This document shows, piece by piece, positions 1,642 through 5,399 of a stretch of 64,000 nt of DNA. Position 1 is the stretch's first letter. Every line of letters begins with the position of its first letter. The notes beneath the pieces were generated by a model. The model did no database searches, was not told the origin of the DNA, and was given only the letters and a program-made list of their open reading frames with translations. Source of the DNA: the human T2T-CHM13v2.0 reference genome, Homo sapiens; assembly GCF_009914755.1 (NCBI RefSeq), contig NC_060940.1; one strand, given 5' to 3'. The position numbers and the translations under genes were made by a program.

Positions 1642-2618
1642 GATATTTTAGCCACAATCAGTTAAAAAATGCTATTTCTTTCCACTCTGCCTTCCCCATC
1701 ATATTTCCCTCCATGCTGTGTCTTTAGAGAAGCTGCACGTATTTGGGAAACCAGGCTAAGAGGAAATTCTATTGGTGATATATCTGGTCTGGGTTCAGGG
1801 GTATATGATATATTTATGTGGATCATGGTCACTTCCATGACTAGCTGTCTTTCTGTAGGAGTAGCTCCCAGGATAACTTCTGTAGCTCAGCACCCAGAAT
1901 AGTGACCCAAAGATGCAGGGCCAGATGTCCAGTGGGGATAAAAATTCATTCTACAGAGCCCTGGGCTGGAATTCTGTGAGGAGTAGAGAGTGGAGAAGCA
2001 ACGTGGTATTAAATCCACAGAACCGGAAGTCATCTTTAGAAAATTTTCCCAACATCTGATGTGCAAACTCATAAGTAGAAGTTTCACTTCTCATTGAAAC
2101 TTAATCAAAATGGAAGTTCTCTCCCATTGGGAATATGCCCAAGACTGCTGAGACTACAATGATAAATGCACCTCTGTTGATGGAATCTCAAGAAATAGAG
2201 TTTATCAGGCAAAGGCACAAACCAGAGACAGTGCTACAAACAGCAAGTCTATCTGTATGCAAAGCCACCTACCATCAATAATAAAAAACAAATTTCAAAC
2301 AATCATCCTAGAGGAAAAACTGAATTATCTTGCTATTCTCTCTATTGAACATGATGTTATAATATCATTGTCCTATGGAGAGGCAATCAGACAAAGAATG
2401 TATGCAGACAAAGAATGTAGGGGGAATGTAACAGAGGGGGTTCTCAGGCAGTTCATTAATAAAAAACGTTGCATTCTTTTTCTGGATTTTGTGAGGTTTC
2501 TGGTATTTGTCAGCTTTTCAGCTTTGTAATGTGTGGCAAGTTCTTTCCTCATGCTAAAAATACATTCACTTTCAAGTATTATTTTGTACTTTTAATTTTG
2601 TACAAAATTCAAAGATAA

Positions 2619-2943
2619 ATTCAAAACTCAAGATTTATTTATTTATCTATTTATTTATTTTTTTGAGATGGAGTCTCACTCTGTCGCCCAGGCTGGATTG
2701 CAGTGGTGCGATCTCGGTTCATTGCAACCTCTGCCTCCTGGGTTCAAGTGATTGTCCAGCCCTGGCCTCCAGAGTAGCTGGGATTATAGGAGTGTGCCAC
2801 CATGCCCAGCTAATTTTTGTATTTTTTAGTAGAGATGGGGTTTCGCCATTTTGGCCATGCTGGTCTTGAACTCCTGACCTCAGGTGATCCACCCACCTCG
2901 GCCTCCCAGAGTGCCGGGATTACAGGCATGAGCCACTGCACCT
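2619..2943 (-). repeat. Inverted near-identical copy of the AluS at 5062-5375 plus its 3' flank
   Basis: Manual alignment to the reverse complement of 5066-5390 gives 320/325 identities with no gaps. Confidence 0.95.
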
Positions 2944-3127
2944 TATTTATCTTAAAGAAGGCCCCCAAATTGTTTCAGCTTCAGGTCTCAGAAAGCCTGG
3001 GTCTTCCCTGAGTCAGAACCATTTTGAAGGCTTATGAAGCATGATGCCAGAAGCCCTGGGACAGTTCAGTGGTGATTCCTAGATCTGGGGATTTCATAGA
3101 CCAGTAACATTTCCAAAAAATAAAACA

Positions 3128-3426
3128 ATTTTTGTTTTTGTTTTTGTTTGAGACGGAGTTTCACTCTGTTGCCCAGGCTAGAGTGCGGTGGCATGATCTC
3201 AGCTCACTGCAACCTCTGCCTCCCGGGTTCAAGTGATTCCCCTGCTTCAGCCTCCAGAGTAGGTGGGATTACAGGCACGCACCACCACACTAATTTTTGT
3301 ATTTTTAGTAGAGACAGGGTTTCACCATGTTGGCCACGCTGGTCTCGAATTCCTGACCTCAGGTAATCCGCATGCCTCAGCCTCCCAAAGTGCTGGGATT
3401 ACAGGTGTGAGCCACTATGCCCAGCC
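3128..3426 (-). mobile_element. AluS
   Basis: Alu dimer; TCCAAAAAA on both sides (TSD). Confidence 0.92.
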
Positions 3427-3598
3427 TCCAAAAAAATTTGTTTTGAAGGGACCAATATTTGATTGCTAAATGTAAAAGTAAAAAGCCAGATAAATGAACA
3501 CTTAAACCAACCATGTCTATAGTGTTGATGGTTTTTTTTTTAAATAGTTCTTACATAGAAATATACTGAAATATTTACGGATAAAATTATACAATGTC

Positions 3599-3901
3599 GG
3601 AGCTAAGTACAGTGTCTCATGCCTGTAATACCAGCACTTTGGGAAGCCGAGATGGAAGGATCACTTGAGTCCAAGAGTTCTAGACTAGCTTGAGCAACAT
3701 AGCAAGACCCTATCTCTACAAAAAGCAAAAATAAATTTGAGCACGGTGACACATATCTGTAGTCCCAGCTACTCAGGAAGCTGAGGAGGGAGGATCACTT
3801 GGGGCCAAGAGTTAAGGCTGTAGTGAGCCATGATTACACTACTGCACTCCAGCCCAGGTGATAGAGCAAGGCCTTGTCCCTAAAAAAAATAAAATTAAAA
3901 A
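3599..3901 (+). mobile_element. AluJ inside an old L1M 3' fragment
   Basis: Diverged Alu dimer; L1M 3'UTR-like flanks ~3500-4080. Confidence 0.85.
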
Positions 3902-4358
3902 CTAATGTGTACACTTTGTTTTAAACTAATCTAACAGGGGAAGAGGGGATGGGAAGGAGGTTACATGAAACAAGATGTGTCATCTGTTGATAATTGTGGA
4001 TATTGTGTGCTAGGTTCGTGGGAGTTCATTACACTACTCTACTTTTGTAAATGTTACCTTTCATAATGAACGGTAAAAATTAGCCTGATCTAACATACCC
4101 ATAATTTCATAAAAGACACATGAGCACTCTAAACATCGGGAGGCCATAAAGTACCATCCATTATAGTGAATAAGTTTAACCTGGTGAAGCACTATAGTGT
4201 GCTTATTTTTGTTTTGCTATTTCACTGTCATTCCACAGAAATTCTGATCTGTTCAGGAATAATCTATGTGGGCATGGGGTCAAATAGTCAGCTTACTCTC
4301 AAATGATTCAGAAAAAAAAGTTATATGAATGGTACTTCCAATTCATTGTAAGTTTATG

Positions 4359-4400
4359 GTGTGTGTGTGTGTGTGTGTGTGTGTGTGTGTGTGTGTGTGT
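4359..4400. repeat. (TG)n microsatellite
   Basis: Perfect TG run. Confidence 0.97.
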
Positions 4401-4522
4401 AGCAGATCTGGGGTTGAATCTTGTGCTTTTCGTATATACATTCACATTACTGTGTATGTCACATAACCTGCCTGCATCCTCAGTTTCTTTACCTGAAAAG
4501 TAGGTTTAATAATATATACTTC

Positions 4523-4829
4523 GGCCAAGGGTGGTGGCTCATGCCTGTAATCTCAGTACTTTGGGAGGCCAAGGCAAGAGGATCACTTAAGGCCAGGAGT
4601 TCAAGACCAGCCTGGACAACATAGCAAGACTCCCATCACATCAAAAAAAAATTGTAATTAGTTGGGTGTGGTGGCACACACCAGTAGTCCTAGTTACTTG
4701 GGAGGCTGAGGCAGGAGGATCACTTGAGCCCAGGAGTTTGAGGCTACAGTGAGCTATGATCACGTCACTGTACTCCAGCCTGGGTGACAGAGAGAGATCC
4801 TGTCTCTAAAAAAAATAATAAAATAATAA
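4523..4829 (+). mobile_element. AluJ inside a MIR (~4400-4870)
   Basis: Alu dimer; MIR core CCTCAGTTTC upstream. Confidence 0.88.
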
Positions 4830-4900
4830 TATGTACTTCATACAGTTTAAGAATTAAGTAAAACAAGAACTCCTTTTGCACAATGTGTACATCCTATATA

Positions 4901-5033
4901 TTGCTCTGTTGCCCAGGCTGAAGTGCACTAGTGTGATCAAAGCTCACTGCAGCCTCATTCCGAGCTCAAGTGATCCTCCCACCTCAGCCTCCCAAAGTGC
5001 TGGGATTACCAGCGTGCATCACTATGTCAGGCC
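4901..5033 (-). mobile_element. Alu monomer (FRAM-like); inverted duplicate of the monomer at 6304-6460
   Basis: Shares private variants and adjacent unique flank with 6267-6435. Confidence 0.8.
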
Positions 5034-5061
5034 ATTGTCTTTTTTTAAAAGCTTAAGTTTT

Positions 5062-5375
5062 GGCCAGGTGCAGTGGCTCATGCCTGTAATCCCGGCACTC
5101 TGGGAGGCCGAGGTGGGTGGATCACCTGAGGTCAGGAGTTCAAGACCAGCATGGCCAACATGGCGAAACCCCATCTCTACTAAAAAATACAAAAATTAGC
5201 TGGGCATGGTGGCACACGCCTATAATCCCAGCTACTCTGGAGGCCAGGGCTGGACAATCACTTGAACCCAGGAGGCAGAGGTTGCAATGAACCGAGATCG
5301 CACCACTGCAATCCAGCCTGGGCAACAGAGTGAGACTCCATCTGAAAAAAATAAATAAATAGATAAATAAATAAA
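5062..5375 (+). mobile_element. AluS with TSD
   Basis: TSD AAAGCTTAAGTTTT (5048-5061) / AAAGCTTGAGTTTT (5373-5386). Confidence 0.95.
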
Positions 5376-5399
5376 GCTTGAGTTTTGAATGCATTTCCT

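What the first reader, a model, noticed from the sequence alone, without database searches (positions are those of the whole stretch)
2594..5390. 325-bp inverted templated copy of an Alu plus its flank, with fold-back scars at the junction
Seen: 2619-2943 is the reverse complement of 5066-5390 with 5 mismatches and no gaps (98.5%), far closer than unrelated AluS copies. The copy runs past the donor's A-tail through its 3' TSD into flank (ATTCAAAACTCAAG), lacks the Alu's first bases and has no TSD of its own. The donor does have a TSD, which gives the direction of copying. The left junction has a perfect palindrome AATTTTGTACAAAATT (2594-2609), then AAGATAAAT (2612-2620), the reverse complement of the right flank ATTTATCTT (2945-2953). 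Established: short inverted templated junction inserts are hallmarks of polymerase-theta end joining or replication template switching. Inference: this 'Alu' arose by DNA repair copying from ~2.1 kb away, not by retrotransposition. It left a near-perfect inverted repeat that could form hairpins, promote inversion, or make ADAR-editable dsRNA if transcribed.
Basis: partly seen in the sequence, partly recalled or inferred. Interest (0 to 1): 0.8.

Follow-up and report, generated by a model that had tools for sequence, protein, structure and literature searches.

The report
Alu copied nearby by DNA repair
A 340-base patch, made mostly of an inverted copy of an Alu element lying 2.1 kb away plus a bit of its flank, was stitched into an old repeat by error-prone DNA repair or replication template switching and not by the usual Alu "copy-and-paste"; it is a clear example of a known kind of mutation.

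Summary
2619-2943 is the reverse complement of 5066-5390: 325 nt, 5 mismatches, no gaps. It is an outlier among 990 Alu pairs in the window (next best 88.7%).

The donor is a full-length Alu with a 14-nt TSD. The copy carries the donor's tail, its 3' TSD (including a later A>G change) and 4 nt of flank. It lacks the first 4 Alu bases and has no TSD.

New here:
- Both flanks of the copy belong to one old interspersed repeat. 28 paralogues elsewhere in the genome run straight across the site. So 2604-2943 is a clean 340-nt insertion with no target loss or duplication, and 2604-2618 is filler.
- Every filler base reads as an inverted copy of the left flank (6 nt), the donor end (7 nt) or the right flank (9 nt), joined by 2-4-nt overlaps.
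- An Alu-less older paralogue (6267-6437) shows the donor's 3' flank is ancestral. With the collinear flanks, this excludes an inversion model.

Best reading (about 0.75): serial microhomology-primed template switching at a break or stalled fork, not retrotransposition. Main rival (about 0.12): repair templated by the donor's Pol III transcript, whose limits the copy nearly matches. This is a known kind of event, well resolved here. No outgroup genomes or reads could be checked.

The parts
2440..2603 (+). Left part of the host: an old interspersed repeat (family not named; no repeat library on hand). It ends ...CTTTTAATTTTGTAC.
   Evidence: 38 other genomic matches at 70-89% covering query 61-224 of 2380-2618; paralogues continue straight into the right part.
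2604..2618 (+). 15-nt filler AAAATTCAAAGATAA. It reads as three exact inverted templated pieces: 2604-2609 = rc(2594-2599); 2607-2613 = rc(5384-5390); 2612-2620 = rc(2945-2953). The pieces overlap by ATT, AA and AT. An alternative reading is 2604-2614 = rc(2589-2599) with 1 mismatch.
   Evidence: Absent from paralogues. Exact matches checked. The 26-nt imperfect palindrome 2589-2614 appears.
2619..2943 (-). Inverted copy of the donor: Alu positions 5 to end, the A-rich tail, the donor's 3' TSD and 4 nt of flank. It has no TSD of its own.
2944..3010 (+). Right part of the same host repeat, collinear with the left part. 2945-2953 ATTTATCTT served as the template for AAGATAAAT.
   Evidence: 4 other matches; 31 of 48 HSPs span the junction by 15 nt or more on each side..
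5048..5061 (+). 5' target-site duplication of the donor Alu (AAAGCTTAAGTTTT), preceded by a T-run.
   Evidence: Read directly. It matches 5373-5386 at 13 of 14.
5062..5372 (+). Donor Alu, full length, with the tail GAAAAAAATAAATAAATAGATAAATAAAT.
   Evidence: It shares 39 differences from the window's Alu majority with the copy.
5066..5390 (+). The stretch that was used as template.
5373..5386 (+). 3' TSD of the donor. Its G at 5380 is derived: the 5' TSD and the paralogue at 6267-6437 have A. The copy shares this G. The TTTT at 5383-5386 is the only run of four or more T between 5062 and 5420.
6267..6437 (-). Older inverted paralogue (about 84%) of [4900-5061 + 5387-5396]. This is the donor locus without the donor Alu, and it serves as an 'empty site' witness.
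   Evidence: 162-163 nt at 84%, E about 1e-44; 23 nt at 95.7%. (alignment runs through ...AAGCTTAAGTTTTGAATGCATTT).

Best explanation
2604-2943 is a one-off 340-nt templated insertion, a fossil of a repair or replication accident with no known function.

The host repeat was opened between 2603 and 2944 by a break or a stalled nascent strand. No base was lost. The 3' end ...TTTTGTAC was then extended in several short, microhomology-primed bouts, each copying a strand of the same sense and therefore giving an inverted copy:
1. 6 nt of its own left flank, using the self-complementary GTAC as overlap.
2. An abortive 7 nt at the donor's end (overlap ATT).
3. 9 nt of the right flank (overlap AA).
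4. After re-annealing by AT at the same donor site, 323 more nt. This tract runs through the flank, 3' TSD, tail and body of the Alu 2.1-2.4 kb away and stops 4 nt short of its 5' end.

The extended end was then joined to the right side without microhomology.

Shown: the copy, its direction, the clean insertion, the filler and its templates.
Inferred: the order of steps, the break, and the enzymes. The short pieces are in the size range of polymerase-theta insertions. The long tract needs a more processive, MMBIR/D-loop-type synthesis.

The event left a 325-bp, 98.5% inverted repeat with a 2.1-kb spacer. In this assembly the spacer is in the ancestral orientation.
For: Copy and direction:
- 325 nt, 5 mismatches, no gaps, sharp ends.
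- 39 shared differences from the window's Alu majority, against 2 donor-only and 2 copy-only inside the homologous part. Copying therefore came late in the donor's life.
- The copy carries the donor's exact tail, its 3' TSD with the derived G, and 4 nt of flank.
- The donor has a TSD. Its 3' flank GAATGCATTT is contiguous with the TSD sequence in the Alu-less paralogue 6267-6437.

Clean insertion:
- The flanks 2440-2603 and 2944-3010 are collinear parts of one repeat family. 31 of 48 HSPs over 42 fetched loci span the junction.
- In the alignment of 28 distinct paralogues, 0 have extra bases at the junction, and the window shows no duplication or loss there.

Filler:
- It is absent in 11 of 12 paralogue rows.
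- All 15 nt are covered by exact inverted matches to 2594-2599, 5384-5390 and 2945-2953.
- Each junction feature is rare by chance, at 0.2-1.4%.

No other source.

Local DNA-level patching has a second example in the window: 26485-26586 is a copy of 25306-25409 placed inside an Alu, with no TSD.

Literature:
- Inverted flank-templated insertions and repeated rounds of annealing and synthesis are described for SD-MMEJ / polymerase theta (PMC5728401 passages; PMC9962433 passages).
- Inverted copying from nearby by template switching is described for human and ape genomes (PMC5453318 passages).
Against: - The copy's limits (Alu position 5 to 4 nt past the only T4 run) nearly coincide with the donor's expected Pol III transcription unit. 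A DNA template gives no reason for that.
- 325 nt is far above the 3-10 nt given for polymerase-theta insertions.
- The last junction (2943/2944) has no microhomology.
- The filler is AT-rich and short, so its decomposition is not unique. Two readings are given, and the chance tests were made after seeing the pattern.
- The empty site is inferred from paralogues that are 65-76% identical, not from orthologues.
- One paralogue (L015) has an Alu of its own near the equivalent place, so the site is Alu-prone.
- No reads were examined.
Confidence: 0.75

Rival explanations
1. RNA-templated break repair. The template was the donor Alu's own Pol III transcript, reading slightly through the T4 terminator. 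It was reverse-transcribed at a break 2.1 kb away by L1 ORF2p acting without its endonuclease, or by a repair polymerase with reverse-transcriptase activity. This would be a non-classical Alu insertion or class-2 TSIP from a neighbouring source.
For: - The copy spans Alu position 5 to 4 nt beyond the only T4 run after the donor (5383-5386). That is almost exactly the expected primary transcript.
- The sequence at the recalled A-box and B-box positions is printed; no box motif was scored.
- There is no TSD, and non-Alu sequence is co-inserted, as reported for non-classical Alu insertions (PMC5402677 passages).
- Class-2 TSIPs are attributed to cDNA patches (PMC5110952 passages).
- Polymerase theta has reverse-transcriptase activity (PMC9962433 passage).
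Against: - The source lies 2.1 kb away. For a diffusible RNA drawn from about a million Alus this is very unlikely unless repair uses local transcripts.
- The match runs 4 nt past the T4 run, and that same site (ATTCAAA) appears to have been used twice.
- Non-classical insertions are typically 3'-truncated, lack the tail and delete target DNA. Here the tail is complete and no target base is lost.
- The other filler pieces were copied from DNA flanks.
- The other local patch (26485-26586) is not an Alu unit. The older paralogue pair includes about 27 nt upstream of an Alu-like monomer's start.
Confidence: 0.12
2. Gene conversion of a pre-existing Alu. An older, independently inserted Alu already lay at 2603/2944. 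A break in it was repaired from the inverted neighbour by homology. Synthesis ran off into the donor's flank and the end was then joined.
For: - Inverted Alus 2 kb apart are plausible conversion partners (general knowledge).
- The site is AT-rich, and one paralogue (L015) has its own Alu nearby.
Against: - There is no trace of a recipient Alu. The first 4 Alu bases are missing and are replaced directly by host-repeat sequence.
- No TSD remains. The two host flanks abut with neither duplication nor loss relative to 28 paralogues. This would require a deletion ending exactly at a TSD boundary.
- 14 nt of non-homologous flank were copied.
Confidence: 0.04
3. Inversion with duplicated breakpoints (the staggered-break or FoSTeS inversion model). 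2944-5065 would be inverted relative to the ancestor, and the two arms would be the duplicated breakpoint segment.
For: The architecture (arm, 2.1-kb spacer, inverted arm) is what that model produces, and putting 2943 next to rc(5065) would restore a full-length Alu (reasoned).
Against: - It requires 5390/5391 to be a novel junction. The Alu-less paralogue at 6267-6289 carries TSD + GAAT + GCATTT contiguously, 22 of 23.
- It requires 2944 onward to be inverted relative to 2603. 31 of 48 paralogue HSPs run collinearly across 2603|2944.
Confidence: 0.01
4. Ordinary target-primed retrotransposition from a shared master Alu, or an assembly artefact.
For: Alus are by far the commonest source of such sequence. 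Nothing specific supports either reading.
Against: - No TSD. The donor-specific tail and flank are copied. There are 39 shared private differences.
- An artefact would not carry 5 substitutions, unique junctions and filler.
- Reads were not examined.
Confidence: 0.02

Closest known systems
Microhomology-mediated break-induced replication / fork stalling and template switching (MMBIR/FoSTeS) templated insertions
   Same: Several successive template switches, 2-4-nt microhomology at 3 of 4 joints, nearby templates, and an inserted tract of hundreds of bases in inverted orientation.
   Different: Those models were mostly defined on large pathogenic copy-number rearrangements. Here the net result is only a 340-nt fixed insertion in a gene desert. 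A replicative origin cannot be shown from sequence.
Polymerase-theta templated insertions / synthesis-dependent MMEJ (PMC5728401, PMC9962433; passages read)
   Same: Filler pieces of 6, 7 and 9 nt copied from sequence next to the break, inverted as in snap-back synthesis. Repeated anneal-extend-dissociate rounds, including an apparent abortive first try at the donor.
   Different: The main tract is 325 nt from 2.1 kb away, against the 3-10 nt from the immediate flanks given as typical. The spacer-less palindrome centred on GTAC cannot form as a simple intramolecular hairpin. None of the 3 copy-lineage substitutions lies opposite template T, the review's main polymerase-theta error site.
Short-range template switch mutations, four-point model (Löytynoja & Goldman 2017, PMC5453318; passages read)
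   Same: A fragment from nearby is copied in reverse complement and creates a new inverted repeat. The events are found as fixed differences in primate genomes.
   Different: That model covers a single switch-and-return over short range. The authors state that it does not model long-range switches or multiple rounds. Here there are three or four templates, one of them 2.1-2.4 kb away.
Non-classical (endonuclease-independent) Alu insertions and class-2 templated sequence insertion polymorphisms (PMC5402677, PMC5110952; passages read; the primary NCAI paper, Srikanta 2009, was not held)
   Same: An Alu-containing insert without TSD, with co-inserted non-Alu bases and end-joining-like junctions. 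A catalogue would probably file this locus there.
   Different: Those are ascribed to RNA/cDNA from distant sources, are usually 3'-truncated and are usually accompanied by target deletion. Here the source is the neighbouring Alu, the tail and genomic flank are included, and no target base is lost.

Membership tests
Classical Alu retrotransposition (TPRT) | Flanking target-site duplications (PMC5402677) | tested here: not met
   The host-repeat flanks abut without duplication relative to 28 paralogues. The longest direct match between the 25-nt flanks is 5 nt.
Classical Alu retrotransposition (TPRT) | Intact 3' end with a poly-A tail that ends the insert | tested here: not met
   The tail is present, but it is the donor's exact tail and is followed by 14 nt of the donor's TSD and flank.
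Non-classical Alu insertion (NCAI) | No TSD; non-Alu sequence often co-inserted | tested here: met
   No TSD. 15-nt filler plus 14 nt of donor flank.
Non-classical Alu insertion (NCAI) | 3' truncation and loss of poly-A; deletion of target DNA in most cases | tested here: not met
   The tail is complete. No target base is missing relative to the paralogues.
Non-classical Alu insertion (NCAI) / class-2 TSIP | RNA (cDNA) intermediate; source at a distant locus | tested here: inconclusive
   The source is 2.1 kb away, not distant. RNA against DNA cannot be decided: the limits of the copy fit a Pol III transcript within 4 nt at each end.
Polymerase-theta templated insertion / SD-MMEJ | Short insert (3-10 nt) identical to sequence flanking the break, primed from microhomology | tested here: met
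   This holds for the filler pieces: 6 nt, 7 nt and 9 nt exact inverted matches with overlaps GTAC, ATT, AA and AT. It does not hold for the 325-nt tract.
Polymerase-theta templated insertion / SD-MMEJ | Dependence on POLQ | not testable with these tools
   This is a historical germline event. The sequence alone cannot name the enzyme.
MMBIR/FoSTeS complex rearrangement | Two or more template switches in one event, with microhomology at the joints and nearby templates (features recalled; partly in PMC5453318 passages) | tested here: met
   Three or four templated segments; overlaps of 4, 3, 2 and 2 nt, with 0 at the final joint; templates at -5 to -10 nt (2594-2599), +1 to +10 nt and +2.1-2.4 kb.
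Four-point short-range template switch | Single switch-and-return, short range, with the fragment copied in reverse complement | tested here: not met
   Reverse-complement copying is met. The single-round and short-range conditions are not.
Alu-Alu gene conversion | A recipient Alu present beforehand; tract confined to homologous sequence | tested here: not met
   The tract includes 14 nt of non-homologous flank. There is no recipient remnant or TSD. Orthologues were not available.

The most novel reading that the evidence does not exclude
The patch was reverse-transcribed from the neighbouring Alu's own Pol III transcript. This would be a natural, fixed human germline example of break repair templated in cis by a local non-coding RNA. 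The copy starts 4 nt past the only T4 terminator and ends 4 nt short of the transcript's first base. If so, some 'non-classical' Alu insertions would be local RNA-templated repair products and not stray retrotransposition.
Probability: 0.12. Interest if true: 0.7.

Novelty: new member of a known kind. Interest (0 to 1): 0.4.

Why it matters
- It shows, base by base, that an apparently ordinary Alu copy can arise without retrotransposition. Such copies would be mis-dated and mis-assigned in Alu phylogenies and in insertion catalogues.
- It is an unusually complete natural record of a multi-step templated insertion. Every inserted base has an identifiable template, and the empty site can be reconstructed from paralogues.
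- It bridges the 3-10-nt polymerase-theta scars and the kilobase-scale template switches seen in disease.
- The same 64-kb window holds a second TSD-less local patch and an older inverted paralogue pair. Events of 100-300 nt may therefore be commoner than catalogues suggest, but two cases give no rate.
- The resulting 325-bp inverted repeat could support hairpins, inversion or RNA editing. No transcript is annotated here, and none of this was tested.

Tried and rejected
- Inversion / staggered-break model. Rejected by the Alu-less paralogue and by the collinear host-repeat flanks.
- Pre-existing 18-nt palindrome AAGATAAAT·ATTTATCTT at the target as the cause of breakage. Disfavoured, because the left half is absent from the paralogues.
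- Intramolecular snap-back on the upstream GTAC (the hairpin found: -5.6 kcal/mol, z -1.67, 13 of 200 shuffles as good). It explains only 5 nt of the filler, so the inter-strand reading was preferred.
- Copy-lineage substitutions as polymerase errors. All 3 are transversions: nascent A opposite template G twice and T opposite C once. P = 0.036 for no transition in 3 at a recalled transition share of 0.67. The numbers are too small, and the pattern does not fit the polymerase-theta preference quoted. This is left as an observation.
- Direction and mechanism of the older pair, 4900-5061/5387-5396 against 6267-6437. Searching the genome with 5397-5700 gave 5 weak matches, none reaching the junction. 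Unresolved.
- A 16-of-17 inverted match, 4886-4902 against 6037-6053. Chance level is 131 of 3000 for a 12-nt match within 1.5 kb. From recall, both stretches look like L1 3' ends. Not used.
- A wider survey of neighbouring sequence for similar events could not be made.
- Earlier scan notes were not open.
- The primary paper on non-classical Alu insertions was not held. Its features are taken from passages of PMC5402677.
- No supplement was opened.
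Full report
OBSERVATION

The two arms are real and exact. 2619-2943 is the reverse complement of 5066-5390 over 325 nt, with 5 mismatches (2633, 2665, 2685, 2791, 2850) and no gap. 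Similarity stops abruptly at both ends (pair I1).

The pair stands far apart from other Alu pairs:
- Among 45 near-full-length Alus found in the window with the donor as query, the 990 pairwise identities have mean 76.8% and sd 5.1.
- This pair is at 97.2% over 285 columns, which include 4 non-homologous end bases. The next best pair is at 88.7%.
- In the whole genome (the window's own assembly, 3.1 Gb), the best other matches to 2560-3000 are 85-89% identical. Only 40 of 5420 first-look candidates were scored.
- A 91-nt query made of the donor's tail and flank finds only itself and the copy. The other 20 matches are confined to the A-rich tail.

WHICH IS THE ORIGINAL

The element at 5062-5372 is a full-length Alu with an A-rich tail. 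It lies between AAAGCTTAAGTTTT (5048-5061) and AAAGCTTGAGTTTT (5373-5386), a 14-nt target-site duplication with one difference, downstream of a T-run.

The copy lacks the first four Alu bases. It contains the tail, the 3' duplicate and four further bases, GAAT.

Against a majority line of the other 43 window Alus, donor and copy share 39 differences. Only 2 are donor-only and 2 copy-only within the homologous part. Copying therefore happened after the donor had aged, and a common master element does not explain the pair. Some of the 39 may be subfamily markers, because the majority line mixes subfamilies.

By the same comparison, and by the TSD, the five differences split as follows:
- Copy lineage, 3 differences: 2633, 2791, 2850.
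- Donor lineage, 2 differences: 5344 and 5324, the latter at a CpG.

A WITNESS FOR THE DONOR'S CONTEXT

A self-comparison turned up 6267-6437 as an older inverted paralogue (about 84%) of 4900-5061 joined to 5387-5396. This is the donor locus without the donor Alu. Its end reads, in reverse complement...AAGCTTAAGTTTTGAATGCATTT.

Two things follow:
- The bases after the donor's 3' duplicate (GAAT GCATTT) were next to the target sequence before the Alu arrived. The junction 5390/5391 is therefore old.
- The ancestral state of the TSD difference is A. The G at 5380 arose in the donor after insertion and was then copied.

THE TARGET SITE

Both flanks of the copy proved to be parts of one old interspersed repeat. 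2380-2618 has 38 other genomic matches (70-89%, reaching window 2603). 2944-3134 has 4.

I used a paralogue as query to fetch more copies (40 of 238 candidates scored). The two window flanks were joined only inside a script. With that joined query, 31 of 48 HSPs over 42 fetched loci cross the junction by at least 15 nt on each side.

I dropped three duplicate or X/Y-twin loci (L039, L046, L038) and aligned the remaining 28 paralogues. All run from ...TTTTGTA(T/C) directly into T.TTT..CTTAAAG... For example, L024 reads TAATTTTGTAC|TCTTTTGCTTAAAG, against the window's TAATTTTGTAC(2603)|TATTTATCTTAAAG(2944...). In detail:
- None of the 28 has extra bases at that point.
- One (L045) has an unrelated 13-nt insertion 5 nt to the right.
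- Three (L022, L028, L029) have small deletions nearby.

When the window's 2604-2618 was left in, 11 of 12 paralogue rows showed a gap opposite it.

So 2604-2943 is a clean 340-nt insertion. No target base was lost and none was duplicated. The first 15 nt (AAAATTCAAAGATAA) came with the event.

THE FILLER

All 15 bases can be read as exact inverted copies:
- 2604-2609 = rc(2594-2599).
- 2607-2613 = rc(5384-5390), the very end of the donor tract.
- 2612-2620 = rc(2945-2953), the right flank.
- 2619 onward is the long donor copy.

The pieces overlap by ATT, AA and AT. The first switch can use GTAC. The last joint (2943/2944) has no overlap.

A second reading takes 2604-2614 as rc(2589-2599) with one mismatch, giving a 26-nt imperfect palindrome.

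All templates have the same sense as the growing strand, so every piece is inverted.

The junction features are individually uncommon. I note that the tests were made after the pattern was seen and that the sequence is AT-rich.
- 9-nt inverted flank match: 0.24-0.96%.
- 16-nt palindrome within 40 nt: 0.28-1.4%.

MECHANISM

The simplest account is a 3' end at 2603 that was extended in repeated anneal-extend-release rounds on nearby same-sense strands. It then ran processively for 323 nt on the donor 2.1-2.4 kb away, and was finally joined to 2944 without microhomology.

How this compares with described processes:
- Repeated short rounds and inverted flank copies are described for synthesis-dependent MMEJ and polymerase theta (PMC5728401, PMC9962433; passages read).
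- The length and distance of the main tract exceed the 3-10 nt given there. They fit microhomology-mediated, replication-type template switching better.
- The four-point template-switch model for human/ape mutation clusters is the same idea at short range. Its authors say it does not cover long-range or multiple rounds (PMC5453318, passages).

I cannot tell a broken chromosome from a stalled fork, nor can I name the polymerase.

RIVALS

(a) RNA template. The copy begins 4 nt beyond the only T4 run after the donor and ends 4 nt short of Alu position 1. This is close to the expected Pol III transcript and is unexplained by a DNA template. Against it:
- the 2.1-kb distance to the source;
- the complete tail and the absence of any target loss, unlike non-classical Alu insertions as summarised in PMC5402677 (passages);
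- the bases past the terminator, apparently used twice;
- the DNA-templated neighbours in the filler.
I give it about 0.12.

(b) Conversion of a pre-existing Alu. There is no remnant and no TSD, non-homologous flank was copied, and the flanks abut exactly. About 0.04. Only orthologues can close this.

(c) Inversion with duplicated breakpoints. Refuted.

(d) Classical retrotransposition or an assembly artefact. Not supported, though reads were not seen.

AGE

5/325 = 1.5% (95% Poisson interval 0.5-3.6%). With mutation rates recalled from the literature, this is of the order of the human-African ape split, with wide error.

The three copy-lineage differences are all transversions (P = 0.036 at a recalled transition share of 0.67). 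Some may be synthesis errors, which would make the event younger. The numbers are too small to say.

CONSEQUENCES

The event created a 325-bp, 98.5% inverted repeat with a 2122-bp spacer. In this assembly the spacer is in the ancestral orientation: the flanks are collinear and the donor keeps its 5' TSD. No gene or transcript is annotated over it in the table supplied with the finding. Hairpin formation, inversion and RNA editing remain untested inference.

CONTEXT IN THE WINDOW

A screen for local repeats of at least 92% identity and at least 40 nt gave 9 pairs. Apart from this pair, only one is longer than 52 nt: 26485-26586, a direct copy (2 mismatches, one 2-nt gap) of 25306-25409. It was inserted without TSD into an Alu-like monomer 1.18 kb downstream of its source. 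This is a second DNA-level local patch, and its source is not an Alu.

VERDICT

This is a known kind of mutation and an instructive, well-resolved instance of it. Its interest is moderate.

Noticed in passing
window 26485-26586 and 25306-25409: A second TSD-less local patch. The 102 nt at 26485-26586 are a direct copy (2 mismatches, one 2-nt gap) of 25306-25409, 1.18 kb upstream. They are inserted into an Alu-like monomer between ...CCTATAATCCC and CTTTGAGAGGCC, where the Alu majority has AGCA. The source is purine-rich plus unique sequence, not an Alu.
   Followed up: partly
window 4900-5061 + 5387-5396 versus 6267-6437: An older inverted paralogue pair (about 84%) made of an Alu-like monomer plus about 40 nt of its upstream flank. 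The left copy lacks the monomer's last ~30 nt and tail, and was later hit by the donor Alu. Which copy is derived, and by what mechanism, is unresolved.
   Followed up: partly
window 4886-4902 versus 6037-6053: TGTACATCCTATATATT is the reverse complement of 6037-6053 at 16 of 17, right at the left edge of the older copy. The chance of a 12-nt match within 1.5 kb is 131 of 3000. From recall, both stretches look like L1 3' ends, so this may be family resemblance.
   Followed up: partly
window 2633, 2791, 2850 (copy) and 5324, 5344 (donor): Four of the five arm differences are transversions, including all three in the copy lineage (sense strand G>T, G>T, C>A). These may be synthesis errors made during copying. 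Small numbers.
   Followed up: partly
window 2605-2628: Near-tandem 12-mers AAATTCAAAGAT / AAATTCAAAACT straddle the filler/copy boundary. They are read here as an abortive and then a successful priming at the same donor site.
   Followed up: yes
window 2388-2402 and 2405-2419: An exact 15-nt direct repeat CAGACAAAGAATGTA spaced 17 nt apart, a small tandem duplication about 200 nt left of the insertion (family D16).
   Followed up: no
window 10611-10626, 12263-12284, 29467-29490, 62474-62491: Other perfect palindromes of 16-24 nt outside simple repeats, for example AAAGCTGAAAATATTTTCAGCTTT at 29467-29490. They were not examined for template-switch origin.
   Followed up: no
locus L015 (G000:C1:206091495-206094616), about 1630-1700: In one paralogue of the host repeat, an independent Alu lies within a few bases of the position equivalent to 2603/2944. 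This AT-rich spot therefore also attracts classical insertions.
   Followed up: no
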